DNA of 53,782 bases from a virus. The translations under genes were made by a program, and so were the position numbers. The DNA lies in the IMG/VR virus record IMGVR_UViG_3300033149_004295, positions 1 through 53,782 of that record, one strand, 5' to 3'. Numbering within the stretch: position 1 is the stretch's first letter; the number at the start of each line of letters is the position of its first letter. A model generated the notes under the pieces. It was not told the DNA's origin and did no database searches. It was given only the letters and a program-made list of their open reading frames with translations. Positions 4,258 through 42,823 of this stretch are shown piece by piece.

Positions 4258-4934
4258 AAATATTAGTCTCTCCCGCTGAACCGGCAGAAATAAAACGCCA
4301 GCTACGGAGTGCGATTACAAATGCCGTAACCCATTCCCTGCCCGAAAAATACGGGGCCGATTTTCTAATGATGGGTCCTCCTGGAAGGCTGGCAGTTCAA
4401 AGAAAGACTATAGAGGACCTGCTCGCCTCCGTGGAAGATGGAAGGCTGGCCCGGGAAATAGTCTTGCTAAAGCGCACACAGTTTCCCGTACTGCTGGTAG
4501 AAGGCAGGCCGGTATACACTACCGAAGGCAATTTAATATCGCCGTACCGCTCCAGGTTTACTAGGAAGCAGATTAGAAACATCATACGTTCGGTGCAGTT
4601 CGTGCACGGCATATCGGTTGAAAGGACAGATTCAGTCCTCGACACGGTGGGTGCCCTTCAGGAGATGGCCGAGTGGTTCACGAAAGGTGAACACCGGTCG
4701 CTCCTGGGCCGCCCCAAAAGAGCGGCTAGAAACGCCTGGTATACGAGAGAGGATAGGGATTGGGGGAGGTTTTTGCTGCAAGGGTTTCCCGGTATCGGCT
4801 CGACACTGGCGGAGGCGATATTCGACCACTTTGGCCGCGTTCCGCTCAGGTGGGATTGCACTAAGGAAGAGCTGCTTGAAATTGAGGGTATTGGTAAAAA
4901 GAGGGCCGGCGAGCTGTGGAGGATGCTGGAGTAG
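4254..4934 (+). CDS. ERCC4/XPF/Hef-type structure-specific nuclease with a C-terminal (HhH)2
   Basis: GADFLM...VQRKTIEDLLASVEDGRL matches the ERCC4 GDxn-ERKxxxD motif. C-terminal FPGIGSTLAEAI and IEGIGKKRAGEL are HhH motifs. Confidence 0.8.
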   Translation: MKILVSPAEPAEIKRQLRSAITNAVTHSLPEKYGADFLMMGPPGRLAVQRKTIEDLLASVEDGRLAREIVLLKRTQFPVLLVEGRPVYTTEGNLISPYRSRFTRKQIRNIIRSVQFVHGISVERTDSVLDTVGALQEMAEWFTKGEHRSLLGRPKRAARNAWYTREDRDWGRFLLQGFPGIGSTLAEAIFDHFGRVPLRWDCTKEELLEIEGIGKKRAGELWRMLE

Positions 4935-10048: not shown

Positions 10049-10202
10049 AGACTGGTACAGCGCAGATACCAGCGACTCAGTGTGGATCTGCGGCAGTTGC
10101 GGGGCTGAAATACCCAAGTCCTGCGAAAAGCCGGCAATGGAAAAAGCCGAAAAGCCAAAAATTAGGCCGGAAATTAGGCCGGGCATTAGGAGAATCTTGT
10201 AG
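10017..10202 (+). CDS. Small zinc-ribbon protein
   Basis: CPNC...CGSC motif. ATG at 10017; the track ORF starts at the GTG at 10008. Confidence 0.5.
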   Translation: MIKRTCPNCNKDWYSADTSDSVWICGSCGAEIPKSCEKPAMEKAEKPKIRPEIRPGIRRIL

Positions 10203-12441: not shown

Positions 12442-13128
12442 TTACTTTTTTAGCAAAAACGATATAGCGGCTCCAGCGGCAAGTCCGGTGCCGACTCCAA
12501 CCGCTACCCAGGCCCATTTAGGCAGCGTAATGCCGAAGAATGTCCATGTATCCTTATCTTCCTCCGGCGGCGTGGGCGGCGTAGGTGGAGTTGGAGGCGT
12601 TGGCGGCGAAGGCGGTTCTTCCTCACCGCATACTATATTAAGGGTACTGTAAGTCTCCGGGCCTACAATACCGTCTTTAAGTCCAAGGTTTTTGTCAGCT
12701 TGAAACAGTAACACAAAAGCCTCCGTCTTAGCGTCGTAAATATCGTTCTCGATAAGCCGGCTAAAGCAAGCCTGCGGTGACGGAACTTCTGCAAGGTTTA
12801 TATTAAGTTTTCTTTGCACTTCTTCGACTATGCTGCCGGCTGATCCTCTCGACAGGATCGGCCCGTTGGGGTCCATACCCAGAGCCGCGTAAGTTTCCGG
12901 GCCAACTATTCCGTCTTTATACTGTAAACCTATTTTATCCTGGAATAGCAGCACAAAAGCCTCGGTGCGCGGACCGAACAAACCGTCTGCGCTGAGTATT
13001 GGCACGCACAGCTCCGAATCTGAAGCGAAGTAGGCGTTTAACTGTTCCTTGACTACCCTAACGGCGTTGTGTACGGTGCCTTTTTTCAGTATAGGGCACG
13101 TTTTTATATACTTTTCAGGCAGGGCCAT
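12442..13128 (-). CDS. Membrane-anchored protein with two PG_binding_1-type peptidoglycan-binding repeats
   Basis: The motif GLFGPRTEAFVLLFQ...DGIVGPETY occurs twice. A PPSPPTPPTPPTPPTPP linker and a C-terminal TM helix (WAWVAVGVGTGLAAGAAISFLL) follow. Confidence 0.75.
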   Translation of the reverse strand: MALPEKYIKTCPILKKGTVHNAVRVVKEQLNAYFASDSELCVPILSADGLFGPRTEAFVLLFQDKIGLQYKDGIVGPETYAALGMDPNGPILSRGSAGSIVEEVQRKLNINLAEVPSPQACFSRLIENDIYDAKTEAFVLLFQADKNLGLKDGIVGPETYSTLNIVCGEEEPPSPPTPPTPPTPPTPPEEDKDTWTFFGITLPKWAWVAVGVGTGLAAGAAISFLLKK

Positions 13129-13146
13129 TATGAACCCTCCTTTAAA

Positions 13147-13554
13147 TTATCTCTTGCATAAATCAATTAATATTAGGTCAATAATTTCAATACCAGCAGG
13201 TGTTTCTTCTTCTTTTAGTTTGTTGGCGAAGCTTGAACCGAATGAATCAGCCACGTCGAAAAGAAACTTGTCTTTTTCCTTTTGTTCTTTTTTGTTTTTA
13301 ATGCTGCCTAAATATGTTGAAAATTTTTTATCGGTAAGTGATCCATAGCATTTTAACGGCTTCTTTTCTTCGTCCTTACCGTCGAATATGGCGAGGTTTT
13401 CGCCATTGCATTTACATAGCGTCAGGTAGCCTTCAACATCTCGGCCAGATACAGGTTCTCGTAGACAGCTACAAGAAACTTTCTTTGGCATTGCGTCAAT
13501 GTCCGCTACCTTCAGCAGTACATCCATAACCGAGGTAAATTCCATTTGCGGCAT
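13147..13554 (-). CDS. Hypothetical protein
   Basis: 135-aa ORF in the operon; Cys-rich N-terminal half. Confidence 0.5.
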   Translation of the reverse strand: MPQMEFTSVMDVLLKVADIDAMPKKVSCSCLREPVSGRDVEGYLTLCKCNGENLAIFDGKDEEKKPLKCYGSLTDKKFSTYLGSIKNKKEQKEKDKFLFDVADSFGSSFANKLKEEETPAGIEIIDLILIDLCKR

Positions 13555-13568
13555 ATTAATACCTCCCG

Positions 13569-14171
13569 CTATTGTTTAAGTAAATAAATTGTACCTAGTA
13601 AAGCGGCAGCAATTGCTATCCATAATAAAATTTTGTTTTTCTCAATGCCAGGTACACTCGTATTAATAATATTATTTGTGTGGTATGCAACCTTCTGCGC
13701 GTATTCTTCCGGAGGGCTTACCGTCCACAGGTGTGCTATATCAACGAGCCTGTCCGCCGATCCAACATTCTCCATTAGCCAGTAGTATCGCCAATGTCCG
13801 TGATTTTTGTCATATTTTCCGCAATCCGGGTTAGGGCACTCGGGGTACACATAGCCTGCAAGCCTCTCAAAGTGAGCATGCACGCCTTGCTCCCAGGAGT
13901 CAAACCTTTGTCCCGCTCCCGGAGTGCCTATAACGTCCAGTCCGGCGGGGTTATGCCACTCAGGTTGAGCAGTACCGGTAAACAATAAAAAATTAGTTTC
14001 GTGTACCATCTGCCCTGCCGCTATGTCGTGCCTTATGTTAAATTTCCTGCCGAATTTGACGTAGTATTCTCCAAGCCTCGGCGCATCCGGGTTTCTGGTC
14101 GCCACGTAGCTGTCTATTTGCTCGGCTTTTACTCCTGAAGTACCTATAAGGGACGTATATATATCAACCAC
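13569..14171 (-). CDS. Glucosaminidase-family (LytD/FlgJ-like) peptidoglycan hydrolase with a C-terminal TM anchor
   Basis: AAGQMVHETNFLLF...NPAGL... resembles the glucosaminidase core. C-terminal helix LLWIAIAAALLGTIYLL. Confidence 0.6.
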   Translation of the reverse strand: MVDIYTSLIGTSGVKAEQIDSYVATRNPDAPRLGEYYVKFGRKFNIRHDIAAGQMVHETNFLLFTGTAQPEWHNPAGLDVIGTPGAGQRFDSWEQGVHAHFERLAGYVYPECPNPDCGKYDKNHGHWRYYWLMENVGSADRLVDIAHLWTVSPPEEYAQKVAYHTNNIINTSVPGIEKNKILLWIAIAAALLGTIYLLKQ

Positions 14172-14183
14172 GTTAAATCATCC

Positions 14184-15188
14184 TCAATACCTGTAATTGC
14201 CGGTGAGCACGTCTGTTATAAATCGACCGTATATTGCAGGATCTACATTCTTGTTGGCATAGAAATAATATCCTCCCTTTTTGATTACAAAGCTGGAGAA
14301 AATTTTCGGGTAGACATATTCATCTTCTGATACGTAATAGTTCGGAGTAAGTTCCGGAGGTATTACTCCTGGAAGGACTAGACTTCTTTCGTATATAAAA
14401 CTAGGGTCAATGTCGTGAGTGTCGAAATGCGCGCCTTCCCCTATTATGAAGCCGGGCGCGAGTTCTTCAATGTCTAAGTATTCGCCGAATACTATAGCAA
14501 AGGACTTGGGGTTTCCGAATATGGGCAGCGTCCCGTATGGCACGTCGCCGTAATAAAAGGGCCAGTCGGTGTAGTCAATCCACACACCGCCGCGACTTAT
14601 GAAGTTTGCTAGGTCTACTAAATCGTTTAAACCGATTGGGCCGGCGGCGGGGAGGACCTCACCGCCCATGTTAAGCACGTAGTTACCTTCCCGGAAATTC
14701 GGTAGTCCTCTTACCACAGGCTCAATTATAGCCAGTAATTCGTCACGTACAGTTGTTGAAACCGACCGGACGGGCGACACGTTTCTTGGGTATAAAGGAA
14801 TTACTGCTCTACCCGGAATTAGCCGCTCTACGAGGATACTTCTTGAAGTAGATCTAGTATTTCCGTCATCATCCTCAACCGTAAGTGTTATGGCATAAGT
14901 GCCTTCTTCCTGGTACGAATGGGTTACCACTTGTCCCGATAATTGCGTGCCGTCCCCCATATCCCAGGTGTATCTCCTAATTGAGCCGTCCGGATCATAG
15001 GAACTTGACGCGTCAAAAGTCAATTCTTCCATTTCCTCTACCGGAGGCGTGGGACTAATAGAAAATTGGGGCACGGGCGGCTTGCCTCTACCCGGGATGC
15101 CTATGTCTCCTTTTAAATATTTATACAGCAGGTACGAAGCACCCACACCTGCGGATACAATGGCTACATTTCTCCAGTTTACGGCCAT
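14184..15188 (-). CDS. N-terminally anchored PKD-domain protein
   Basis: N-terminal TM helix VAIVSAGVGASYLLY. FDASSSYDPDGSIRRYTWDMGDGT...HSY...GTYAITLTVEDDDG is a canonical PKD domain. Confidence 0.75.
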   Translation of the reverse strand: MAVNWRNVAIVSAGVGASYLLYKYLKGDIGIPGRGKPPVPQFSISPTPPVEEMEELTFDASSSYDPDGSIRRYTWDMGDGTQLSGQVVTHSYQEEGTYAITLTVEDDDGNTRSTSRSILVERLIPGRAVIPLYPRNVSPVRSVSTTVRDELLAIIEPVVRGLPNFREGNYVLNMGGEVLPAAGPIGLNDLVDLANFISRGGVWIDYTDWPFYYGDVPYGTLPIFGNPKSFAIVFGEYLDIEELAPGFIIGEGAHFDTHDIDPSFIYERSLVLPGVIPPELTPNYYVSEDEYVYPKIFSSFVIKKGGYYFYANKNVDPAIYGRFITDVLTGNYRY

Positions 15189-15223
15189 ATTTAACCACTT
15201 CCTTGGTCTTTATTTCGCCGCCC

Positions 15224-15436
15224 TTAAAGTGAGTCAGAGTTATTATTCTGATTCTTAACCGCTTCCTTGTCAACGATTGCTTCGCCGATTATATAAGCAA
15301 CAATAGGCAAGACAACAGCAAGCATTGACTCTACATCAAGCTCGATACCAGTATAGTAATTAATAAACATTACCAAAGCTGTTAATATAGCGGCCCAAAA
15401 CTTGCGGGATTTCAGCGGATGTTTACGCTCTTCCAT
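15224..15436 (-). CDS. Putative holin (two TM helices)
   Basis: 70 aa with two hydrophobic segments (FWAAILTALVMFINYY and MLAVVLPIVAYIIGEAIV) and a charged C-terminus. Confidence 0.5.
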   Translation of the reverse strand: MEERKHPLKSRKFWAAILTALVMFINYYTGIELDVESMLAVVLPIVAYIIGEAIVDKEAVKNQNNNSDSL

Positions 15437-15480
15437 TAGATGGACCCCCCCTTTCCATATTTAGCAATTTTACTCAACTC

Positions 15481-15813
15481 TTATCTACTGGCCACTATCT
15501 CAATTTCGTTATCATTGGCTGCTGTCGTCTCTACTTTTATATATCTATACGCATTGTCATAGCCACGATGTTCTTCTCCTGCGCTAGTTAGACTTATTGT
15601 ATCTGTTTTCCTGTATTCAATTCCGTCTTTAGAGCCTGATACGATAAAATCAGCAGCTCCGGAACTTTTTACCCAAACCTCTACTTTAATTCTGCCACCC
15701 CATTCTCCTGTATCTAGTATTACGGTAAGAGGTGCTCCGGTTGATGAGTCACTAGCACTTATTGGCTTGAAAAACTGCGCTATATTTTTGAGGCCAATAC
15801 CCACTTTTATCAC
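15481..15813 (-). CDS. Hypothetical beta-rich protein
   Basis: 110-aa ORF between the adhesin-like genes and the holin-like gene. Confidence 0.5.
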   Translation of the reverse strand: MIKVGIGLKNIAQFFKPISASDSSTGAPLTVILDTGEWGGRIKVEVWVKSSGAADFIVSGSKDGIEYRKTDTISLTSAGEEHRGYDNAYRYIKVETTAANDNEIEIVASR

Positions 15814-15818
15814 CTCGT

Positions 15819-17384
15819 TTATTCAACTGACCGTCCTTCTGGCGGCCAGGTACCGACTACTGTTTCTATTTCAAGTACCCAAGGTCCGACGTGTCCTTTA
15901 GAGGGTAAGTCCGACTGTCCACACCGGACGTAGCCAGTGCTCAGGATTTCAGATACATCTCTGACCCGTGATGTACCTGCACCTGGTAAATCTGATTTAT
16001 CTGAGAAAGGTATGATACCAGTAGAAGGTAAATTTATACCAGTATTTACACTTCCTGTTGAGTACAGGTCTGAAATCTGATGCACTATTCCGGATGAGCG
16101 TAGCCACATGCTATTTAAGTGTCCGCGCGAAGGAAGTTCATTGGCTGCTCCACTAATATATCCACCAGACATTAGATCATCTTTACTATAGACACGTGGA
16201 TTTCCGCTACTAGGTAAATCGTCGTAATAACCGTCAACCACACCTTTTGAGGCTAGTTCATTAGCAGCTCCACTCACATAACCCGAGGCTGTTAAGGCGT
16301 TCTCACTAGGTACACGCGGCTGACCCACAGAAGGTAGGTCATTGTGTTCTAATATATATCCTCTGCTAGACAAGTCGGCTTCTCCAGATATGCGTGGGGT
16401 ACCTGTAGACGGAATATCCCGGCGTGAAACAGCACCTTGGCCGGAGAAGTCATCGGCGACACGGGTTCCTCGAATGATTCCTACGGATTCTAGGTCACTA
16501 ATCTGTCGAACAGTTCCGATTGAAAAAATATCTTTCCTTGATACAGCTCCGAGCGAGTTTAAATCATTATCCGCCGCTATAGCACCTACTACTATTCCGG
16601 TAGAAGGTAGGTCCAACCAGGCATATCCAATTACTCTGCCTGTCGAAAAAAGCTCATTATTTTCCTTTGAAGCGTCAGGATCGTAGTAGGTCACAAGAAG
16701 TTGTGGACGCATTACCGCTTCGGGCCATTCTCTGGAAGTATAGACAGAATGTGCTTGAATCTGCTCATCAACGGCTAAAATCATTATACCGTTATTTGCC
16801 CTGGTCTGTTTATACCAACCGAGAAACAGGCCGGTAATATCGAGGTCAACGACTTCACTAACAAGGGCCTGGTTTTCGGCAACCGGGTAACGTCCGGGCT
16901 GGTTTGCCCAGGTGACGCCAAGTTCTTCCCACGAGCCAAGGAGGTTGTATGCTGCTATTTCTCCCACCTTTGTTATTCTGGCGAATAGTCTTAACTTAGC
17001 AGAAATAATGTCCAAATCAGTTCGCAAAGTCGAAATATCAAATTGTAGTAGTGCTCGACTCAATTTTGAATTGTATCTACCAATAACTAGGTCAACCACA
17101 TCCCCGTAGTTGATAGTGGGTTTGGCATCTGTAATAAAGGCGTCAGCCACCGGTGTAATGACTACGGTTGTCTTTGGACGTTCAAGTATTTCGTATTGAA
17201 CTATTAAGCTGCCATGAATAGCAATATGTCCAACTGAAGGTAGATTGCCATGTTGGTTTACTTTACCTGTAGAGTTTAGGTCAGAAGCTCCTATTGGCAA
17301 TACTTGGTAAGTCAGTTCAAGACTACCGGTTAGGTTTATTGGTAATACTTGGTAAATCAGTTCAAGGCTACCGGTAACACTCAT
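15819..17384 (-). CDS. DNRLRE-domain protein with tandem ~20-aa (D)LPS(T/S/R)G repeats; fibre or adhesin-like
   Basis: DAFITDAKPTINYGD...SRALLQFDIS...ISAKLRLF...WEELGVTWANQPG matches the DNRLRE domain pattern. At least 10 LPSxG-type repeats follow. Confidence 0.65.
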   Translation of the reverse strand: MSVTGSLELIYQVLPINLTGSLELTYQVLPIGASDLNSTGKVNQHGNLPSVGHIAIHGSLIVQYEILERPKTTVVITPVADAFITDAKPTINYGDVVDLVIGRYNSKLSRALLQFDISTLRTDLDIISAKLRLFARITKVGEIAAYNLLGSWEELGVTWANQPGRYPVAENQALVSEVVDLDITGLFLGWYKQTRANNGIMILAVDEQIQAHSVYTSREWPEAVMRPQLLVTYYDPDASKENNELFSTGRVIGYAWLDLPSTGIVVGAIAADNDLNSLGAVSRKDIFSIGTVRQISDLESVGIIRGTRVADDFSGQGAVSRRDIPSTGTPRISGEADLSSRGYILEHNDLPSVGQPRVPSENALTASGYVSGAANELASKGVVDGYYDDLPSSGNPRVYSKDDLMSGGYISGAANELPSRGHLNSMWLRSSGIVHQISDLYSTGSVNTGINLPSTGIIPFSDKSDLPGAGTSRVRDVSEILSTGYVRCGQSDLPSKGHVGPWVLEIETVVGTWPPEGRSVE

Positions 17385-17400
17385 AGTTTAGGATACCTCT

Positions 17401-19005
17401 CTAAGATGAAGATGGTGTACCTGTGGCATAAAGGGTGAAGTTCTTAATACCTTCGTTTGGTTCTCCTGTGCTAGTTTTAATAGGTGCATTTACACGGACG
17501 TATACAGTACCAATTTTTTCGTTCGGAGCAAAAGTCCCATTTAACGGCAGGGGATCTTCGGCTACAAAAGGATCAGAAGTGGCAGAAATTTCTATTGTAT
17601 CATCGGACGGTAGGTTCTGTCTGGTAACAGATACATTCGTTACAGCATTATTGATGCCGTTATAGAGGTCAACTCTAACAGGACTGATAGAAGTTCCGGC
17701 AAGGAGTTGACCAAGGTCTTTCTTACTTATCATAGCCCCTTGTGCGTTAGTAAAGATAAGTGCTTGTGTGGTATTGATAGCCAAAGCGTAAGACATTCCT
17801 GCAGCGATGTTTGTTATACCCCCTAAGTAATCTTCTCCGCCAGGCCCTTTTACCTGAACCAGCGTGGTCCTGCCAGTTGTTGTACCGTCGCCGAGCTGAC
17901 CGTAGCCGTTGTATCCACAGGCCCATACCGTGCCATCAGATTTTAGAGCAAGAGAGAAAGTTTTATAAGTATCATCTGCGTGTGCAGTACCTGCAGCGAT
18001 GGCGATAATATCAGTCAAGTAACCTTCTCCGCCAGGCCCTTTTACCTGAACTGGCGTGACCCTGCCAGTTGTTGTACCGTCGCCGAGCTGACCGTAGCCG
18101 TTGTATCCACAGGCCCACACTGTGCCATCAGATTTTAGAGCTAAAGAATGGCAACCACCCGCAGCAATAGCAATAATATCAGTCAAGTAACCTTCTCCAC
18201 CTGGTCCTTTCATCTGCTTCGGTAAGGTCGTCCAGACTATTCCACTGCCGACACCAAGCTGACCGTAGTTGTGTCCCCAACCCCACACCGTACCGTCAGA
18301 TTTTAGAGCAAGGGAATAGCGTTCACCCGCAGCGATGACGATAACATCAGTCAAGTAACCTTCTCCACCTGGCCCCTTTACCTGAACCGGTAAGTGCCTT
18401 TCCTCTGTTGTACTGTCGCCGAGCTGACCGTAATCGTTACCTCCCCAGGCCAACACCGTACCATCAGACTTCAGAGCAAGAGAGAAACTTTCCCATGGAG
18501 TTGAAGTGCTTGAGTCTGTCCCTGCGGCAATAGCAATAATATCAGTCAAGTAATCTTTTCCATCCGGCCTTTTTACCTGAACCGGTGTAGTTCTATTGAT
18601 CGTTGTACCGTTACCGAGCTGACCACAGCCGTTATATCCCCAGGCCCACACCGTACCATCAGATTTTAGAGCTAAAGAATGATAACCACCAGCAGCAATT
18701 GCAATAATATCAGTCAAGTAACCTTCTCCACCTGGCCCCTTTACCTGAACCGGTGTGAACTTGCCAGTTGTTGTACCGTCGCCGAGCTGACCGTAATCGT
18801 TACCTCCCCAGGCCCACACCGTACCATCAGATTTCAGAGCTAAAGAATGGTTACCACCCGCAGCGATGGCGACAACGTCAGTCAAGTAACCTTCTCCGTC
18901 TGGCCCTTTTACCGGAACCGGCGTAGTTTTATTACCCGTTGTATCGTCGCCAAGCTGACCATAATCATTACGACCCCACGCTAAAAATCTAATAAGTGTA
19001 GACAT
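17401..19005 (-). CDS. RCC1-repeat beta-propeller protein with a C-terminal beta-rich domain; candidate receptor-binding protein
   Basis: Seven or more repeats of [24 protein letters not shown]...[22 protein letters not shown]. The DNA repeats are near-identical. Confidence 0.8.
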
Positions 19006-19007
19006 CT

Positions 19008-19634
19008 CTAATCACCTACATGAATAACAATCCTATTTGCTGTTCCGGGACGTAAAATTGTGTTAATTGGCGGATACTCCATATCGCCAAATCTGATCCG
19101 TAATATTCCAGTAAATCCATTGGAGCACATAAACCATAAATATACTTTTATTTCCTCTCCAATCTTGGACGGCACGCGAACCACACATTTACTTCGCCAG
19201 TCACCTAATTCTTTATCTCTAGAAGCAGTTGTCCATCCAACGCAATAAGCGTCAATGCCGCTATCTTCCTTTAGTTTACCGTTTCCCGAACTTATACTAC
19301 AGTGAGCCTCTTTGTACTGGACAACGCGGTAAAATACGTCTTGACGACCAGTAATGGGGAAAAGATTGTTATTGAAGTCCTGTAAGGCAAGCTCAAGAGG
19401 TTTGCCGTTGATGCCTATTACTCCATTATCAACTCTAAAACCAACTCGCGTTCCTGACCCTTCTAGCCCAAAGGAAACTATTTGTGAAAGATCTAAAGCG
19501 CGGAACGGGGTTTCTGTCCACTTACCCCATACCCACGAGCCGGTAAAGTCTAGTTCTTTAACTATCCGCCCGTCTGCATACTGAGCCAGCCATCGCAGTT
19601 CCCTGTTCATACATAACTGCCACCCTTTATACAT
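19008..19634 (-). CDS. Hypothetical protein
   Basis: 208-aa ORF overlapping the upstream stop by 8 nt, which suggests translational coupling. Confidence 0.55.
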
Positions 19635-20085
19635 ATTGGTAACTAACTCTGGTTAACCAATTGCGCTCTCCCGCCGTAGCGGTGCTCGGTGGTGCCCACC
19701 GGAGGGTCAAGAGACAGTAATTCGCGTCTGCGTTGGCTAGGGTTCCATCATTGGCGGCACCGGAAATAACTTGGGCAGTAATTCCATTTCCTATTGGGTG
19801 TGTAGTCGTTCCACCGATGGCAGTAAATCCTGTTTCATCTAGTTCGTCAACCTTGACTTCCACCCATTTTTCTGCTACTACGTCACCAGTGTTTCCCCCA
19901 CCGGTATCTTTGGTCGTAATAACGCAGGATTCCATATCCGAGACAGCAGTTCCGCCTCCGCGATTGTTCCAGATTAGAAACTGCGTCTCTGCGCTTACGG
20001 AACCGGCGTCAACTACACCAACGTCCCAGCTTGTCTGCTGGGTATCATTTGTCGAGTTGTACCAACTAACAATAGGTGCTGTCAT
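19627..20085 (-). CDS. Hypothetical beta-sandwich-like protein
   Basis: 152-aa Gly/Thr-rich ORF in the operon. Confidence 0.5.
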   Translation of the reverse strand: MTAPIVSWYNSTNDTQQTSWDVGVVDAGSVSAETQFLIWNNRGGGTAVSDMESCVITTKDTGGGNTGDVVAEKWVEVKVDELDETGFTAIGGTTTHPIGNGITAQVISGAANDGTLANADANYCLLTLRWAPPSTATAGERNWLTRVSYQYV

Positions 20086-20099
20086 TATTAATCACTCCT

Positions 20100-20594
20100 T
20101 TAGATTAGTGTAAAACCGGACTCGGATTCAACAAATTTGAGAACACCGTGGACCTTGATAGCCTCGTTAGGCTTCTTTGGCGTCGGCGTTATCGGCGTTC
20201 TATCAATCATCGTTCCTTCACTATTAAACAAGGCTATTTCGCCAACAAGAATTAGCTCGGTAGAAGGATCGTTTTCTCCCCAAGAGGCTTCAAAGGTGGC
20301 TCTCAGTCGGTCCTCCGCCGGGTCATAGGTAAAGGTTGCGGGTTTTAAGCTGGTAAAGGCCCCCTGTAGTCCCGTCTGATTAGGGTTAAAAGGAGCTGTC
20401 GAACCTTCTCCCCAACCAATACCTAGAGTATCGGCAACCGGTGGTCGGTTTACAGGGTCACCGGCAGACCTGAGCAAAAACTCACAACCGTCATAAGTGA
20501 TTGAACGGTCGCTAACAACCGAACGGACTACTTTACCTGTAGACGGATCTATTATTTCAAGCCGGAAGCTGTAAATTAACTTCACAGTATTCAC
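20100..20594 (-). CDS. Hypothetical protein, possibly related to the N-terminal tail-collar-fibre domain of P2 gpH
   Basis: The pattern LGIGWGEGSTAPFNPNQTGLQ...VGEIALFNSEGTMID resembles the gpH N-terminal pattern (VGDG...P....T.L..E...E.GLyD..G.L). Weak by-eye match. Confidence 0.3.
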   Translation of the reverse strand: MNTVKLIYSFRLEIIDPSTGKVVRSVVSDRSITYDGCEFLLRSAGDPVNRPPVADTLGIGWGEGSTAPFNPNQTGLQGAFTSLKPATFTYDPAEDRLRATFEASWGENDPSTELILVGEIALFNSEGTMIDRTPITPTPKKPNEAIKVHGVLKFVESESGFTLI

Positions 20595-21469
20595 TCCTGG
20601 AACGGCGTAAATATATCTACTCTATTCAAATACTGTCCATCTCTATACCCACCGATTACGAACAGTTTCTCTCCTACAGCAGCGGCATCGAACTGATCGC
20701 GGCCCAAGGGAAGCGGTGCTTTTTGCGTCCATTTTTTGGAGCTGGTGTCGTACTCCTGATGTAGTGTATCATATCCCTGCCCCCCGAGCACGTGGATATA
20801 TCCACCTAAGGCTACAGCTCGCAAACCTTTTTTTCCATTCGGAACAGGCGTTTCTTCTTCCCATATACGGCTAGTTGGGTCATACGATTCATTAAGGTCG
20901 GTCGCTGTCAGTCCTTGACCGCCTAGAGCATAGAGTTTTTTATTTACTTCTATAACGTCTCCCAAATATCTTCCGTTTGGCATATCGGTTTCTGTGATCC
21001 AACTTGGTGAATCTGGATAATAACTGTAGACTTTATTTATTATATTGGTGCCGTCATAACCACCTAACACGAAAAGACGGTTCAAGACAGAAGCGGCCAT
21101 TAAATAAAACCTGCTGGAACCGGGCAAATCTGGAGCCGAACTCCATAAATCAGTGCTCGGATCATAAACTTCGTGCGTAGTAAGAGCACCGCTTTGACCA
21201 TACCCGCCAACTACATGGATTTTTCCCTCAACTACCGCCGCCGCCATTGAATCCCTGGCAGTTGGCATCGGTGAAAGACTTATCCATGTGTTCCCGGATG
21301 GATCGTAAGCCTCGTTTGCATTAAGCCAGTTAACGCCGTCGAAACCCCCAATACAGTATATAAGCCCATTTAGGGAAACTGCTACGTGCCCAGAACGGGG
21401 GGTAGGCATTGGTTCACCCTGGAACCACCGTCCGTATAAGCTGATACCAGCAGTACGAAGAAAAGGCAC
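20591..21469 (-). CDS. Kelch-repeat beta-propeller protein
   Basis: Six repeats of the form PxPR...A..L.G.IYxxGGyDG...N..E.YDP..N.W. Confidence 0.8.
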   Translation of the reverse strand: MPFLRTAGISLYGRWFQGEPMPTPRSGHVAVSLNGLIYCIGGFDGVNWLNANEAYDPSGNTWISLSPMPTARDSMAAAVVEGKIHVVGGYGQSGALTTHEVYDPSTDLWSSAPDLPGSSRFYLMAASVLNRLFVLGGYDGTNIINKVYSYYPDSPSWITETDMPNGRYLGDVIEVNKKLYALGGQGLTATDLNESYDPTSRIWEEETPVPNGKKGLRAVALGGYIHVLGGQGYDTLHQEYDTSSKKWTQKAPLPLGRDQFDAAAVGEKLFVIGGYRDGQYLNRVDIFTPFQE

Positions 21470-35473: not shown

Positions 35474-35502
35474 TTGACTATATTCAAGTTTATATGTATA
35501 CT
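35474..35502 (+). promoter_or_regulatory. Sigma-A-type promoter candidate for the recombinase gene
   Basis: TTGACT (35474-35479), 17-nt spacer, TATACT (35497-35502). The -10 overlaps the track ATG at 35494, which argues for the downstream TTG start. Confidence 0.55.
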
Positions 35503-35544
35503 TTCAATAAAGATATTTTCCATAAGAAAAAGGAGTTGAAAGTC

Positions 35545-36399
35545 TTGTCTGAACTAAATCTGGACGAAATGATCAAAGAATACTCCGAATCAATAAGGGG
35601 AGGACACAATGTATATGTCCCATTTATAGAACGCTTTCTGAAGGATTGTAAAGGCGATTTTTCCAGAAGTGCAGTAGATAAACACATTAGAAGGCTCAGA
35701 GATAAAAAATATGCAGACGGAACAATAGATCTTGTGTTCAGAACCATTAGAAGGTTTTATAAAGTCAATGGTTTAGAATGGCCCTTTAGAGCCGGTGAGG
35801 GACCGACAGTGAGGGAAAGAGAAGTATACGCGCCGGCACTCGATCCGAAAGTTGTCGCGAAAATGATAAAAGTCGTTAAAGAGAAAGCACCAAAAAAACC
35901 TGAAGCAACTTTTCTTGCCTTATCCACCACCTACGGGTTAAGGAGGACTGAAATGGCAAGCATAGACGCAAGCAATATTGACTTAGAAAATAAAGTAATT
36001 TTTATCGAAACTGCAAAGCATGGCCGACAGAGATACCACTTGATACCGGATGAAATAATTCCGTATATCAAGTACGACTTTCCGAGAATTTCTGTCTCAA
36101 GGCTGACAAAGATTTACTATAACATTGAAAAAATGACTGGCCTTCCTCGCATGAGAGAAGTGGGCTGGCACTCAATTAGAAGAATACTCGACAAGTTGCT
36201 GTACGACGCAGGGCTGCCGGGGCCTTTAATCAGCGATTTCCTCAGATGGAAAAGAGGCGGCAGCGATATGTCCAGGAGATACTACTCGGCCACCATTGTT
36301 GGCGAGGAAGGGAATATGGTCGAAGTAGGTCCCGGCGACAGAAGCGTGGACGAAAAGGTTTTTGAGGTACATCCTTTTCTGCATTTATGGGGGGATTGA
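35545..36399 (+). CDS. Tyrosine recombinase/integrase
   Basis: TTYGLRRTE (Arg I)...HSIRR (His-x-x-Arg)...RRYY (Tyr) motifs. TTG start after an AGGAG RBS; the track ORF starts at 35494. Confidence 0.75.
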   Translation: MSELNLDEMIKEYSESIRGGHNVYVPFIERFLKDCKGDFSRSAVDKHIRRLRDKKYADGTIDLVFRTIRRFYKVNGLEWPFRAGEGPTVREREVYAPALDPKVVAKMIKVVKEKAPKKPEATFLALSTTYGLRRTEMASIDASNIDLENKVIFIETAKHGRQRYHLIPDEIIPYIKYDFPRISVSRLTKIYYNIEKMTGLPRMREVGWHSIRRILDKLLYDAGLPGPLISDFLRWKRGGSDMSRRYYSATIVGEEGNMVEVGPGDRSVDEKVFEVHPFLHLWGD

Positions 36400-40752: not shown

Positions 40753-40815
40753 ACTGGACGCCAGGCAGGACTCTATGCCTGCCTGAAGTCGAGTCTATGC
40801 GGAAAGGGGGTGCGG
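40750..40815 (+). repeat. Intergenic stem-loop cassette, copy D
   Basis: tagACTGGAC...GTCGAGTCT. The G-to-A change in the outer stem converts a G-U pair to an A-U pair. Confidence 0.85.
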
Positions 40816-40824
40816 TTTTAAAAA

Positions 40825-40965
40825 ATGATCTGTGAAATATGCGGTACTGAAAAAGACGTATTCCATGTGGATATATATTACGACGACGAAGAACAGGAAT
40901 TTGATATTCCAGGTTGTTATGACTTTATTTGCGTTAAATGTGCTATAAAATTCAAAATTAAATAG
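40825..40965 (+). CDS. Small zinc-ribbon protein (46 aa; below the ORF-track length cutoff)
   Basis: My translation is MICEICGTEKDVFHVDIYYDDEEQEFDIPGCYDFICVKCAIKFKIK. It follows cassette D and its GGGGG RBS. Confidence 0.5.
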   Translation: MICEICGTEKDVFHVDIYYDDEEQEFDIPGCYDFICVKCAIKFKIK

Positions 40966-40981
40966 ACAAATTACAACAACT

Positions 40982-41050
40982 GTCAAGTATTAAGCATTTT
41001 CTAAAAGAAAATTGCAAAAAGGAAGGCATTGGAGAGCATGTCGTCGAAAA
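40982..41050 (+). repeat. Conserved leader/promoter-like element, copy 1 (second copy at 45418-45480)
   Basis: The copies share gtcaag.a..ttttctaaaagaaaatt.caaa..gg.ag...att...gtcgaaa. The core is an AATTTTC-N5-GAAAATT palindrome. Confidence 0.6.
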
Positions 41051-41079
41051 AAATAATTCAAAAGGAGGGGTGAAAATAA

Positions 41080-41397: not shown

Positions 41398-41742
41398 ATG
41401 AAAAAATGCACAAAAACTAAAAAACCGTGTTTTCCGGAGCGGGTAAAGAAAGTTATTTTTAAAATTACCGACCTTCCCGCAGAGAAGCGGAAAGTAAACG
41501 ACGTCACGGTGGCCCTGGCCGAGCAGGGCCTCACCGTAGACGCGGCTGAGAAGTATTTATTGCAACAGGGATATGAACCCAAAACCGTAAAAGCCGCCCT
41601 GGGACTTGGACCGATCGAAGACGCTATCGCTCTTTATCGGCTCCGAAATGCGGAGCTGTGGCTGCGTGATAAGTCTACTATTAGAGAACTAAAAAAGGCC
41701 AAAGAACACCTAGAAAAAGGTCTTTGGCCGAAGTCGGAATAA
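41398..41742 (+). CDS. Hypothetical protein
   Basis: ATG after a TAAGGAG RBS; 114 aa. Confidence 0.55.
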   Translation: MKKCTKTKKPCFPERVKKVIFKITDLPAEKRKVNDVTVALAEQGLTVDAAEKYLLQQGYEPKTVKAALGLGPIEDAIALYRLRNAELWLRDKSTIRELKKAKEHLEKGLWPKSE

Positions 41743-41814
41743 CTGCGAAACCGGCCTCGTGCCGGTCGGCCACAAATACAGCTCCCCGCCGTGGCTCTGA
41801 TGAGCAGGGGGAGC
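41743..41814 (+). ncRNA. Type II hammerhead self-cleaving ribozyme (HH-1); predicted cleavage between 41767 and 41768
   Basis: Stem II: CUGC (41743-46) pairs with GCAG (41804-07). GAAA is at 41747-50. Stem III is CCGGC-cucgu-GCCGG closed by an A-U pair. C17 is at 41767. Stem I: GGCCAC pairs with GUGGCU. CUGAUGA is at 41797-41803. Pseudoknot: GCUCCCC (41781-87) pairs with GGGGAGC (41808-14). Confidence 0.85.
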
Positions 41815-41830
41815 AAAAGGAGGAATTTAA

Positions 41831-42205
41831 ATGCTAACTCTGGACGCTTTAAGAAAAATTGCTCAAAAAGAGGGGTTTAGGGAGTGTGATTATTACGAAT
41901 TTACTACTCATCGAAAAATAAGTACAAATTTTTATCACTTTGTCAATGAAGATAAAAACATTGCAATAAACGCCCAGCTTGGTCCTGATGTAGATATGGC
42001 TACGCTTGTTTATACAGTCGGGGGAAGAGAGGCTTTGGAACAATCCTCCCATCTGCTGCTCGAAAAAAGAAAAATAACAGTTGAAGCAGCACTCAAGTAC
42101 GGCCCGTGGGGGCCGGTGGAAACAGAGATGTTTGAAGTTAAAACAGAAGAAGAACTTATCAATGCAATCAAAGAAGCCAAAAAGATAGCAAGACCCAGAG
42201 CATAA
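41831..42205 (+). CDS. Hypothetical protein (the gene bracketed by the two hammerheads)
   Basis: ATG after an AAAGGAGG RBS; 124 aa. Confidence 0.55.
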   Translation: MLTLDALRKIAQKEGFRECDYYEFTTHRKISTNFYHFVNEDKNIAINAQLGPDVDMATLVYTVGGREALEQSSHLLLEKRKITVEAALKYGPWGPVETEMFEVKTEEELINAIKEAKKIARPRA

Positions 42206-42209
42206 TTCC

Positions 42210-42290
42210 TTGCGAAACCGGCCTCGTGCCGGTCGGCCACAAAAACACAAAAACTAGCTCCCCGCCGTGGCCCTGATGAGCAGGGGGAGC
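42210..42290 (+). ncRNA. Type II hammerhead self-cleaving ribozyme (HH-2); predicted cleavage between 42234 and 42235
   Basis: Same architecture as HH-1. UUGC pairs with GCAG; GAAA at 42214-17; identical stem III; C17 at 42234. Stem I pairs GGCCAC with GUGGCC, a compensatory change relative to HH-1. CUGAUGA at 42273-79. Pseudoknot: 42257-63 pairs with 42284-90. Confidence 0.85.
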
Positions 42291-42313
42291 AGAAAGGGGT
42301 TTGTAGATGAACA

Positions 42314-42823
42314 ATGCGCTATAAGCCATATCCAGTTTCTGACCGCCGCCTGTATCGCTGCATCGCTATCGCGGTCTCCCAGCAGCGGTGGCTCGGCGGC
42401 TGGGAGTATACAATTTGGGAGAAAGGTCTCTCCCAGGACCTCTATCACGAGCTTGTTACCGCCGGGGTAGAGGCCTACCGGGAGAACCTCGACCCTGACA
42501 GCGATTTTAAGGCGATAAAAAACATTGCGCAGCGTAGACTGTATCACTTTCTTTCCGCCTACGGCATACACCGTGGATGGGACCCGGTTCAAAAGAAACA
42601 ATTGAAAGGTTTCCAGAGCCGGGAAGCCTGCGTGGGCGAATTTAAATTCGACATATCTGCTCCGGACGCAGAGCCGAACCTAATCCGTATAGCAATAATC
42701 CAGCGGTTTGGCCCTGATGCCTGGGACGAACTTTGTAACTGGGTCAACGACCGGAGAAAGAAAAGAAAGCCGCCGGTTGTGGACCAAGTTGTTAGATATC
42801 TTAAAAAGGAGGTGTTAGTGTGA
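42314..42823 (+). CDS. Hypothetical protein
   Basis: 169-aa ORF; no confident family. Confidence 0.5.
   Translation: MRYKPYPVSDRRLYRCIAIAVSQQRWLGGWEYTIWEKGLSQDLYHELVTAGVEAYRENLDPDSDFKAIKNIAQRRLYHFLSAYGIHRGWDPVQKKQLKGFQSREACVGEFKFDISAPDAEPNLIRIAIIQRFGPDAWDELCNWVNDRRKKRKPPVVDQVVRYLKKEVLV

What the first reader, a model, noticed from the sequence alone, without database searches (positions are those of the whole stretch)
41743..42290. Two type II hammerhead ribozymes bracket a single 124-aa gene
Both elements (41743-41814 and 42210-42290) contain the full catalytic core in type II order: stem II 3' strand, GAAA, stem III hairpin closed by A15.1-U16.1, C17, stem I hairpin, CUGAUGA, stem II 5' strand. 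Each also has a 7-bp pseudoknot between loop I (GCUCCCC) and the 3' extension (GGGGAGC).

Stem I shows a compensatory difference between the copies (G-U versus G-C). Stem II shows a C-G versus U-G change.

Predicted cleavage after 41767 and 42234 would excise the 41831-42205 cistron from the polycistronic mRNA as a monocistronic fragment with 5'-OH and 2',3'-cyclic phosphate ends.

Type II hammerheads with such pseudoknots are known from bacterial and phage sequences. Why this particular gene is cut out is unknown.
Basis: partly seen in the sequence, partly recalled or inferred. Interest (0 to 1): 0.65.

Follow-up and report, generated by a model that had tools for sequence, protein, structure and literature searches.

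The report
Two hammerhead ribozymes flank a phage gene
Two near-identical self-cutting RNA motifs (type II hammerhead ribozymes) sit in the gaps on either side of a small gene of unknown function in a phage-like element; they look real, but this layout was already described for prophages in 2011, so it is a new example rather than a new phenomenon.

Summary
Positions 41743-41814 and 42210-42290 (+ strand) each carry every hammerhead core base in type II order. Each has stems I and III, a short stem II and a 7-bp pseudoknot (GCUCCCC/GGGGAGC). C17 lies at 41767 and 42234.

Rfam Hammerhead_II scores 34.1 and 35.8 bits, just under the 37-bit cut-off (whole-window E 3e-3 and 1e-3). A model I built from 12 unrelated viral type II hammerheads gives 34.5 and 37.0 bits; the next-best site scores 10.7. 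A strict descriptor finds exactly these two sites and none in 100 shuffles.

Each ribozyme fills a stop-to-Shine-Dalgarno gap, as do 17 of 19 comparator hammerheads from viral contigs. Five Mu-like contigs have two type II hammerheads around a single HU-like gene. Perreault et al. 2011 described hammerheads flanking single prophage genes and showed cleavage.

The likely mechanism is self-cleavage that releases a 467-nt monocistronic RNA (41768-42234). The effect on expression is inferred.

The 124-aa gene and both neighbours have no detectable homologues, so no synteny test was possible.

Verdict: new member of a known kind, low to moderate interest.

The parts
41743..41814 (+). Hammerhead 1 (type II). 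Parts: CUGC 41743-46; GAAA 41747-50; stem III 41750-66; C17 41767 (cleavage between 41767 and 41768); stem I 41768-73 with 41791-96; loop I 41774-90; CUGAUGA 41797-803; GCAG 41804-07; pseudoknot 41781-87 with 41808-14.
   Evidence: RF02276 34.1 bits; 34.5 bits with the independent model.
41819..41823 (+). Shine-Dalgarno GGAGG of the bracketed gene. It lies 4 nt after the pseudoknot strand and 7 nt before the ATG.
   Evidence: Sequence.
41831..42205 (+). 124-aa ORF with no detectable homologue and no known function. GC3 is 0.33, the lowest in its operon.
   Evidence: Codon model favours this frame. No homologues. No family match. No fold match. GC3.
42210..42290 (+). Hammerhead 2 (type II). Parts: UUGC 42210-13; GAAA 42214-17; stem III 42217-33; C17 42234 (cleavage between 42234 and 42235); stem I 42235-40 with 42267-72; loop I 42241-66, with a tandem ACAAAAAC x2; CUGAUGA 42273-79; GCAG 42280-83; pseudoknot 42257-63 with 42284-90.
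   Evidence: RF02276 35.8 bits; 37.0 bits.
41768..42234 (+). Predicted 467-nt excised RNA. It would run from a 5'-OH through stem I and the pseudoknot, the SD and the ORF to the stem III hairpin and C with a 2',3'-cyclic phosphate.
   Evidence: Inference from hammerhead chemistry and the coordinates of the two C17 residues.
41398..41742 (+). Upstream 114-aa ORF with no detectable homologue. Its stop codon abuts HH1 (0-nt gap), and its 3' end holds a 9-bp hairpin at 41697-41729.
42314..42823 (+). Downstream 169-aa ORF with no detectable homologue. After HH2 cleavage it would be the first cistron of the 3' fragment. It is preceded by the SD-like GAAAGGGG (42292-99) and by the mini-ORF 42307-42324.

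Best explanation
Both elements are genuine, probably active, type II hammerhead self-cleaving ribozymes stabilised by a loop I / 3'-tail pseudoknot. Each exactly fills an intercistronic spacer, from stop codon to Shine-Dalgarno, in a + strand operon of small genes without detectable homologues. The operon lies in a phage-like mobile element, probably of a Bacillota host.

As the polycistronic RNA is made, each ribozyme folds and cuts itself after C17 (41767 and 42234). This gives three RNAs:
- an upstream piece ending in the stem III hairpin with a 2',3'-cyclic phosphate;
- a 467-nt monocistronic mRNA for the 124-aa protein;
- a downstream piece.

Both 3' products start with a 5'-OH whose first base is already paired in stem I and the pseudoknot, directly ahead of the ribosome-binding site.

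The net effect is to uncouple the stability and translation of consecutive cistrons. Each 'ribozyme-SD-ATG' module acts as a self-trimming leader that gives the following gene a defined 5' end.

Shown here: the motifs, their placement and their statistical support. Inferred: cleavage, co-transcription and the consequences for expression.
For: All core bases and helices are present.

Statistical support:
- RF02276 E 2.5e-5 and 6.8e-5.
- An independent model built from 12 viral type II hammerheads gives 37.0 and 34.5 bits; the next-best site scores 10.7.
- The descriptor scan finds 2 hits, against 0 in 100 shuffles.

The 7-bp pseudoknot sits in the same register as the 4-5 bp pseudoknot of the comparators. 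The hammerhead fold plus pseudoknot comes to roughly -34 kcal/mol by summing one search's two values (an estimate that ignores pseudoknot loop penalties), against -30.8 for the best nested fold that computed.

The similarity between the copies starts sharply at the first ribozyme base. It is 96% inside the ribozyme and 16/26 in the RBS-ATG tail.

The ribozymes lie on the same strand as all neighbouring genes. They are 0 and 4 nt from the upstream stop and 16 nt from the next ATG. In 17 of 19 comparators the ribozyme starts within -2 to +4 nt of a stop, and in most it ends 5-13 nt before a start.

Five Mu-like IMG/VR contigs have two type II hammerheads around one HU-like gene.

Perreault 2011 reported hammerheads flanking single genes or short gene blocks in prophages, with cleavage of the polycistronic RNAs in vitro and in E. 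coli. Type II hammerheads next to phage-like genes cleave in vivo in Desulfovibrio vulgaris.

No strong + strand terminator-like site was found between about 38.7 and 44.6 kb.
Against: Neither copy reaches the Rfam gathering score: 34.1 and 35.8 bits against 37.

No relatives of this locus exist in any collection searched. There is therefore no covariation or synteny support specific to this pair.

The two copies are near-identical, so they count as roughly one independent observation.

Stem I (6 bp), loop I (17 and 26 nt) and the pseudoknot (7 bp) differ from the comparators (8 bp, 6 nt, 4-5 bp). Activity with this geometry is untested.

Nested folding prefers the pseudoknot helix as a plain hairpin over stem I.

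The direction of the effect on expression is unknown. In Bacillus subtilis a ribozyme-made 5'-OH end targets RNA for decay by RNase J1 (PMC3328962).
Confidence: 0.8

Rival explanations
1. The ribozymes are the same, but they act negatively. In a Bacillota host the 5'-OH ends made by cleavage are entry points for the 5'-to-3' exonuclease RNase J1. HH1 would then lower expression of the 124-aa gene, and HH2 would lower expression of everything downstream. This would be graded attenuation along the operon rather than production of a stable monocistronic mRNA.
For: The glmS ribozyme works this way in B. subtilis (review PMC3328962 citing Collins 2007).

Host hints point to Bacillota. The Amidase_3 lysin is closest to Paenibacillus, Bacillus and Clostridium phage lysins. 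A DUF1256/YyaC-like protein is present. Shine-Dalgarno sequences of the GGAGG type are strong.
Against: After cleavage the first nucleotide, G1.1, is base-paired in a 6-bp stem reinforced by a 7-bp pseudoknot, so no single-stranded 5' tail is left. From general knowledge, 5'-terminal structure tends to protect mRNAs in B. subtilis; this was not tested here.

The host assignment is weak (42% identity).
Confidence: 0.25
2. The pair is a recombination or duplication scar. On this reading a 'ribozyme-SD-gene' cassette (a moron) was inserted by homologous recombination at a pre-existing hammerhead, or by tandem duplication. Bracketing would be a by-product, and one or both copies need not matter for this gene.
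For: The copies are 96% identical inside the ribozyme, whereas hammerheads within one comparator locus are only 55-78% identical.

The repeat continues in register through the SD and ATG (D1).

The 124-aa gene has the lowest GC3 in its operon, 0.33 against 0.40-0.62.

Perreault 2011 notes that the identities of the flanked genes are not constant.
Against: Both copies keep every core base. All substitutions in the stems preserve pairing.

This origin story is compatible with both ribozymes being active. It explains how the arrangement arose, not what it does.

No relatives exist in which to look for the empty site.

The GC3 value is only the 11th lowest of 88 ORFs.
Confidence: 0.3
3. The excised 467-nt RNA is circularised, either by the reverse hammerhead reaction or by an RtcB-type ligase, to give a circular mRNA. 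Alternatively the two outer fragments are re-joined, which would splice the gene out.
For: The ends of the excised RNA carry complementary halves of a complete hammerhead: the 3' half of HH1 and the 5' half of HH2, which are nearly identical. Perreault 2011 raised this idea.
Against: Perreault et al. looked for circular or spliced products in comparable clusters and found none.

In a type II hammerhead the two cleavage products are held together only by stem II, which here is 2-4 bp and would have to close a 375-nt loop.

No RNA ligase family appears among the Pfam/PHROG families listed for the window; only the top 25 of each search were shown.
Confidence: 0.04
4. The elements are chance look-alikes or non-ribozyme repeats, for example protein-binding or recombination sites.
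For: The scores are below the Rfam gathering threshold. Nested MFE z-scores are unremarkable, -1.6 and -0.75.
Against: The descriptor scan found 0 hits in 100 shuffles. The two sites stand about 24-26 bits above any other site in the window under an independent model. All invariant core bases are present, together with three helices and a 7-bp pseudoknot in the family's register.
Confidence: 0.02

Closest known systems
Type II hammerhead ribozymes with a loop I / 3'-tail pseudoknot (Rfam RF02276; Perreault et al. 2011, PMC3088659)
   Same: The core (CUGAUGA, GAAA, A15.1-U16.1, C17) and the topology are identical: stems I and III are capped and stem II is open. 'GC' before GAAA and 'GCAG' after CUGAUGA are the same as in the family. 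The pseudoknot starts right after GCAG.
   Different: Stem I is 6 bp rather than 8. Loop I is 17 or 26 nt rather than about 6. The pseudoknot is 7 bp (GCUCCCC/GGGGAGC) rather than 4-5 bp (GUGG/CCAC). The scores are 1-3 bits under the Rfam cut-off.
Clustered hammerheads flanking single genes or short gene blocks in prophages (Agrobacterium tumefaciens triple arrangement around ardA; Clostridium scindens; Azorhizobium caulinodans; Perreault 2011, Fig. 3)
   Same: Two ribozymes lie on the coding strand of a phage-type operon and bracket one small gene. Single-gene mRNAs are the predicted product.
   Different: The bracketed gene here has no detectable homologue (it is not ardA). The host is probably a Bacillota organism. 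The two ribozymes are near-identical copies. Nothing has been tested experimentally.
Mu-like viral contigs in IMG/VR with HH-II / HU-like gene / HH-II / GemA-Mor block / HH-II
   Same: The ribozyme starts within -2 to 0 nt of the upstream stop and ends 5-13 nt before the next ATG. One gene of about 100 aa lies between two type II hammerheads.
   Different: The gene content is unrelated. Their ribozymes are diverged from one another (55-78% identity) and show covarying stems. They have three ribozymes per locus, against two here.
glmS ribozyme (5'-OH-triggered decay by RNase J1 in Bacillus)
   Same: A self-cleaving ribozyme in an mRNA leader creates a 5'-OH end upstream of a coding region.
   Different: There is no metabolite-sensing domain, the ribozyme class is different, and here the 5' end is buried in a helix.
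Retrozymes and viroid-like RNAs (hammerhead-flanked units that become circular RNAs)
   Same: A unit is delimited by two like hammerheads, so its ends could in principle rebuild one ribozyme.
   Different: Those use type III or type I hammerheads whose open helix is long enough to hold the ends together. They are non-coding or eukaryotic. Here the hammerhead is type II, with a 2-4 bp stem II closing across a 375-nt ORF.

Membership tests
Hammerhead ribozyme, type II (RF02276) | Conserved catalytic core: C3 U4 G5 A6 N7 G8 A9, G12 A13 A14, the A15.1-U16.1 pair, and H17 (not G) at the cleavage site. | tested here: met
   Both copies carry CUGAUGA, GAAA, an A-U pair closing stem III, and C17.
Hammerhead ribozyme, type II (RF02276) | Three helices around the core in type II order, with stems I and III hairpin-capped and stem II open. 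| tested here: met
   Stem III is 6 bp, stem I is 6 bp and stem II is 2-4 bp, in the order 11.x-GAAA-III-C17-I-CUGAUGA-10.x.
Hammerhead ribozyme, type II (RF02276) | Pseudoknot of at least 4 bp between loop I and the nucleotides just 3' of stem II (present in the majority of type II members). | tested here: met
   A 7-bp Watson-Crick pairing GCUCCCC/GGGGAGC starts directly after GCAG in both copies. It is in the same register as the comparators' pseudoknot, which is 97.9% paired.
Hammerhead ribozyme, type II (RF02276) | Operational criterion only, not a structural feature: covariance-model score at or above Rfam's gathering cut-off of 37 bits. | tested here: not met
   Scores are 34.1 and 35.8 bits, with whole-window E 3.3e-3 and 1.2e-3. 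The model cannot score the pseudoknot. It aligns the 17- and 26-nt loop I against a 10-nt stretch of the model; I infer, but did not measure, that this accounts for part of the shortfall. An independent model gives 34.5 and 37.0 bits, with background at or below 10.7.
Hammerhead ribozyme, type II (RF02276) | Site-specific self-cleavage that gives 2',3'-cyclic phosphate and 5'-OH ends. | not testable with these tools
   This needs in vitro transcription or end-specific RNA-seq.
Clustered intercistronic hammerheads of phage/prophage operons (Perreault 2011) | Two or more hammerheads within a few kb, on the sense strand of a phage-type gene array, flanking one gene or a short block. | tested here: met
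   The two hammerheads are 467 nt apart on the + strand, like all neighbouring genes. The window carries Ant, lysins, integrases, Dam and tail-like proteins.
Clustered intercistronic hammerheads of phage/prophage operons (Perreault 2011) | The ribozyme fills the stop-to-start spacer.
   The gaps from stop to hammerhead are 0 and 4 nt, and from hammerhead to ATG 16 nt. In the comparators they are -2 to +4 nt and 5-13 nt.
Clustered intercistronic hammerheads of phage/prophage operons (Perreault 2011) | Cleavage of the polycistronic transcript into gene-length RNAs. | not testable with these tools
   This has been shown only for the published examples.
Hammerhead-delimited circular RNAs (viroid-like RNAs, retrozymes) | An open helix or other pairing long enough to hold the two ends of the unit together for ligation. 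| tested here: not met
   Only stem II (2-4 bp) would join the ends, across a 375-nt ORF.
Hammerhead-delimited circular RNAs (viroid-like RNAs, retrozymes) | Detection of the circular RNA. | not testable with these tools
   No transcript data are available. Perreault 2011 found none in similar clusters.

The most novel reading that the evidence does not exclude
The near-identical ribozyme pair may be more than an mRNA-processing device. It may delimit a mobile or exchangeable 'ribozyme-SD-gene' cassette. In one version the 467-nt RNA is circularised into a stable circular mRNA. In another the conserved ribozyme DNA serves as the homology patch through which phages swap single accessory genes. 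My evidence does not exclude either version: the copies are unusually alike (96%, against 55-78% within other loci), the repeat runs on through the SD and ATG, and the gene is compositionally the odd one out in its operon.
Probability: 0.07. Interest if true: 0.75.

Novelty: new member of a known kind. Interest (0 to 1): 0.25.

Why it matters
The biological purpose of the many hammerheads in phage operons is still open (2019 review PMC6765202). This locus adds a compact example: two near-identical ribozymes, one 124-aa gene and a 467-nt predicted product, in a probable Gram-positive phage-like element.

In such a host the fate of 5'-OH RNAs, whether decay by RNase J1 or protection by 5' structure, can be tested directly.

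The locus also shows that real type II hammerheads with long loop I and long pseudoknots fall just under the Rfam cut-off. Default scans therefore undercount them.

It does not change what is known about the class.

Tried and rejected
Search for relatives, which came up empty:
- Near and distant DNA search of 40-44 kb against INPHARED found no match.
- The 124-aa, 169-aa and 114-aa proteins against 5.8 billion proteins found only themselves.
- phmmer of the 124-aa protein against 1.84 billion representatives found only itself.
- tblastn against phages found nothing.
- The search for related loci with both neighbours in IMG/VR found nothing.
- A stem-specific hammerhead pattern found nothing in metagenome or genome contigs.
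- A pseudoknot-specific pattern gave 13 loci, but none of the 11 scanned with Rfam is a hammerhead (two Streptomyces loci were dropped to fit the size limit), and nothing in IMG/VR.

Function of the 124-aa protein:
- Pfam and PHROGs gave no match.
- AlphaFold from the single sequence gave pLDDT 66.
- Foldseek against PDB and BFVD gave nothing at E <= 1e-3. The best match was Bacillus phage G Gp307, E 4.6e-3, TM 0.41, itself uncharacterised.

Other ribozymes or further hammerheads in the window: none was found by Rfam at E <= 1, by the descriptor scan or by the custom model with filters off.

The antisense ORF 41849-42250 was considered as the real gene and rejected on the codon model.

Nested MFE folding does not recover stem I, because the pseudoknot helix competes with it. 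This is a limitation of the method, not evidence against the fold; the energy sums are.

One search failed because I mistyped the structure string.
Full report

Yes. Reading 41600-42450 shows two elements on the + strand with the full hammerhead core in the type II circular permutation.

HH1 (41743-41814) reads as follows:
- CUGC (stem II 3' strand)
- GAAA (G12 A13 A14 plus A15.1)
- stem III ACCGGC-CUCGU-GCCGGU, closed by A15.1-U16.1
- C17 at 41767
- stem I GGCCAC / GUGGCU around a 17-nt loop
- CUGAUGA
- GCAG (stem II 5' strand)
- GGGGAGC, a perfect complement of GCUCCCC in loop I

HH2 (42210-42290) is the same, with three differences: U for C at the first base, C for U at position 2.1, and a 26-nt loop I. 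Its C17 is at 42234.

**2. Is it more than chance?**

- A default Rfam scan of the window returns nothing.
- With an E-value threshold, both sites are full-length matches to RF02276 Hammerhead_II at 34.1 and 35.8 bits, against a gathering score of 37. E is 6.8e-5 and 2.5e-5 on the 1.1-kb stretch, and 3.3e-3 and 1.2e-3 on the whole window.
- The model cannot score the pseudoknot, and it aligns the 17- and 26-nt loop I against a 10-nt stretch of the model. I take that to explain part of the shortfall, but did not measure it.
- As an independent test I aligned 12 type II hammerheads from unrelated IMG/VR contigs. I confirmed that their stems and pseudoknot covary: 98.8% of cells are paired, 10 pairs carry double changes, and 0 of 500 shuffles reach this. 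I then built a covariance model without the window's sequences and scanned the window with filters off. The two sites score 37.0 and 34.5 bits (rough E about 1e-7), and the next-best site scores 10.7 bits.
- A strict descriptor (core bases, A-U-closed stem III of at least 4 bp, H17, stem I of at least 4 bp, stem II of at least 2 bp) finds exactly these two sites and none in 100 shuffled windows.
- No other ribozyme family is detected in the window.

**3.

- The two differences in the stems are one-sided transitions opposite a G (G-U versus G-C; C-G versus U-G). They keep pairing but are not compensatory double changes.
- In the 12 comparators stem II is an invariant 2-bp GC/GC followed by an invariant AG. 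The two bases 5' of GCGAAAC vary and mostly cannot pair with that AG.
- HH2 could extend stem II to 6 bp, at the expense of two pseudoknot pairs.
- Nested MFE folding forms the pseudoknot helix as a hairpin instead of stem I. Adding the hammerhead fold (-21.2 and -20.5 kcal/mol) to the pseudoknot duplex (about -13) gives a total at or below the nested MFE (-30.8 and -27.7).

**4. Anatomy of the surroundings**

The genes from about 38.4 to 45.2 kb are all on the + strand and tightly packed. No strong + strand terminator-like site was found between about 38.7 and 44.6 kb.

HH1 starts at the base after the TAA of a 114-aa ORF. It ends 4 nt before GGAGG (41819-23), which lies 7 nt before the ATG of the 124-aa ORF (41831-42205). 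HH2 starts 4 nt after that ORF's stop. It ends 1 nt before GAAAGGGG, upstream of the 169-aa ORF (42314-42823).

A codon-usage model trained on long ORFs of the window picks the + frame of the 124-aa ORF as coding. It scores the longer antisense ORF 41849-42250 as antisense to a gene.

The direct repeat begins sharply at the first ribozyme base. Inside the ribozyme there are 3 substitutions and one 9-nt loop insertion (a tandem ACAAAAAC). The repeat then continues, at 16/26 identity and in register, through the SD to an ATG. The repeated unit is therefore 'ribozyme-SD-ATG'.

**5. What the element is**

The window encodes:
- an Ant-type antirepressor, PG-binding and Amidase_3 lysins, a Dam methylase and a helicase;
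- a UDG-superfamily domain protein and an AAA_24 protein;
- RCC1, Kelch, PKD and CBM96 proteins of the tail-fibre kind;
- two tyrosine recombinases and an IS110-like transposase.

It is a phage-like mobile element. No capsid or terminase family appeared in the lists I saw.

The Amidase_3 protein is closest (42% identity) to lysins of Paenibacillus, Bacillus and Clostridium phages, and a DUF1256/YyaC-like protein is present. A Bacillota host is therefore likely but not shown.

**6. The bracketed gene**

The 124-aa protein has:
- no relative in 5.8 billion proteins or in 1.84 billion representatives by full phmmer;
- no match in INPHARED by tblastn;
- no Pfam or PHROG family.

The single-sequence AlphaFold model is mediocre (pLDDT 66) and has no significant structural neighbour.

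Its GC3 of 0.33 is the lowest in its operon (0.40-0.62) but only the 11th lowest of 88 ORFs.

Both neighbours are equally without relatives, and no related locus exists in IMG/VR. Hammerheads with these stems or this pseudoknot were not found in viral, metagenome or genome collections. Locus-specific comparative evidence is therefore unavailable.

**7. Comparison with other viral hammerheads**

A loose pattern recovered ten IMG/VR contigs with type II hammerheads, and Rfam finds 20 hammerheads in them.

Five contigs (L001, L006, L007, L008, L010) are Mu-like, with DUF3164, GemA and Mor. They carry three type II hammerheads. The first two bracket a single 98-103-aa HU-like gene (in L006: HH 4266-4332, gene 4345-4641, HH 4640-4706). 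The third follows the GemA/Mor block.

Across 19 comparator hammerheads, 17 start within -2 to +4 nt of an upstream stop codon, and most end 5-13 nt before the next start. The window's pair has the same exact-fit placement.

There are three differences. The comparators have an 8-bp stem I, a 6-nt loop I and a 4-5 bp pseudoknot, against 6 bp, 17 or 26 nt and 7 bp here. Hammerheads within one comparator locus are only 55-78% identical, against 96% here once the loop insertion is set aside.

**8. Literature**

- Perreault et al. 2011 (PMC3088659) described natural type II hammerheads with the loop I / 3'-tail pseudoknot. [quoted passage not shown] They showed cleavage of such polycistronic RNAs in vitro, and in E. 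coli for the Agrobacterium ardA cluster. They looked for spliced or circular products without finding any.
- The 2019 review PMC6765202 says that processing of polycistronic transcripts into RNAs of different stability or translatability has been suggested but not established.
- PMC10085705 notes that bacterial hammerhead and twister ribozymes are enriched near Mu-like phage genes and near other ribozymes.
- cyPhyRNA-seq confirmed in vivo cleavage of type II hammerheads next to phage-like genes in Desulfovibrio vulgaris (PMC8782182).

**9. Most likely mechanism**

The mechanism is self-cleavage, probably as the RNA is made, after C41767 and C42234. It gives three RNAs.

Every 3' end made this way stops one base after the G+C-rich stem III hairpin and carries a 2',3'-cyclic phosphate. 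Every 5' end starts with a 5'-OH on G1.1, which is already paired in stem I and locked by the pseudoknot, with the SD a few bases downstream.

The middle product (41768-42234, 467 nt) is a monocistronic mRNA for the 124-aa protein. I read each 'ribozyme-SD-ATG' module as a self-trimming leader that frees the following cistron from its upstream context. On this view the bracketing arises because two consecutive genes each have such a leader.

The motifs and their placement are shown. Cleavage, co-transcription and the effect on expression are inferred.

The sign of the effect is open. In B. subtilis the 5'-OH made by the glmS ribozyme is a signal for decay by RNase J1 (PMC3328962), so attenuation is a live alternative. 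The buried 5' end argues for protection.

**10. Rivals**

- Attenuation through RNase J1: same ribozymes, opposite sign.
- A duplication or recombination scar that marks a recently acquired cassette. This explains the origin of the arrangement and is compatible with activity.
- Circularisation or splicing. This is unlikely, because a type II hammerhead holds its products together only through a 2-4 bp stem II, and because published attempts to find such products failed.
- Chance. This is excluded for practical purposes.

**11. Verdict**

Both the ribozyme class and the gene-bracketing arrangement are already published, and the arrangement recurs in unrelated viral contigs seen here.

This is a new member of a known kind. 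Its minor particularities are a long loop I, a 7-bp pseudoknot, a sub-threshold Rfam score, near-identical copies, a gene without relatives and a probable Gram-positive host. Interest is 0.25.

Noticed in passing
window 42307-42324 (and 42292-42299, 42314): A 5-codon mini-ORF (ATG AAC AAT GCG CTA TAA, MNNAL*) starts 7 nt after the SD-like GAAAGGGG. It is in register with the ATG of the 124-aa gene in the ribozyme repeat. The 169-aa ORF starts at ATG 42314 inside the mini-ORF, in another frame and 14 nt from the SD. This could be a leader peptide with translational coupling, a frameshifted start, or an assembly error.
   Followed up: partly
window 41697-41729: A 9-bp hairpin GGCCAAAGA / UCUUUGGCC lies inside the last codons of the 114-aa ORF, 14 nt before HH1. 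After cleavage it would sit near the 3' end of the upstream RNA, together with stem III.
   Followed up: no
window 42239-42254: Loop I of HH2 is 9 nt longer than that of HH1 because of a tandem ACAAAAAC x2. The 5' part of loop I therefore tolerates length changes.
   Followed up: partly
window 42208-42209 with 42284-42285: HH2 could extend stem II to 6 bp (CC with GG), which would remove two pairs from the pseudoknot. HH1 cannot do this. The copies may differ in folding or rate.
   Followed up: no
window 40753-41079: This is an AT-rich gap (GC about 0.30-0.33) without a + strand ORF. It contains a weak promoter-like site at 41030-41057, just upstream of the SD of the 86-aa ORF. It is a candidate start of the transcript that carries the ribozymes.
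   Followed up: no
window 35494-36399 and 45867-46775; 48368-49345: The operon that holds the ribozymes lies between two tyrosine-recombinase genes. One matches only weakly and partially; the other is XerC/D-like and strong. An IS110-family transposase-like gene follows.
   Followed up: no
window 12442-21469 (- strand): A run of large proteins carries RCC1, Kelch, PKD and CBM96 domains. They are probably host-recognition or tail-fibre-like proteins. No capsid or terminase family appeared in the family lists I saw.
   Followed up: no
window 10137-10168: A weak match to the DUF805b RNA motif: 19.6 bits against a gathering score of 35.6, E 0.51. It is probably chance or a simple hairpin.
   Followed up: no
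L006 4266-6407; also L001, L007, L008, L010: Mu-like IMG/VR contigs carry three type II hammerheads: two around an HU-like gene and one after the GemA/Mor block. In L007, L008 and L010 the first hammerhead spans 99 nt because of a long insertion in stem III. L007 2374-2459 matches sRNA-Xcc1 at 70.7 bits.
   Followed up: partly
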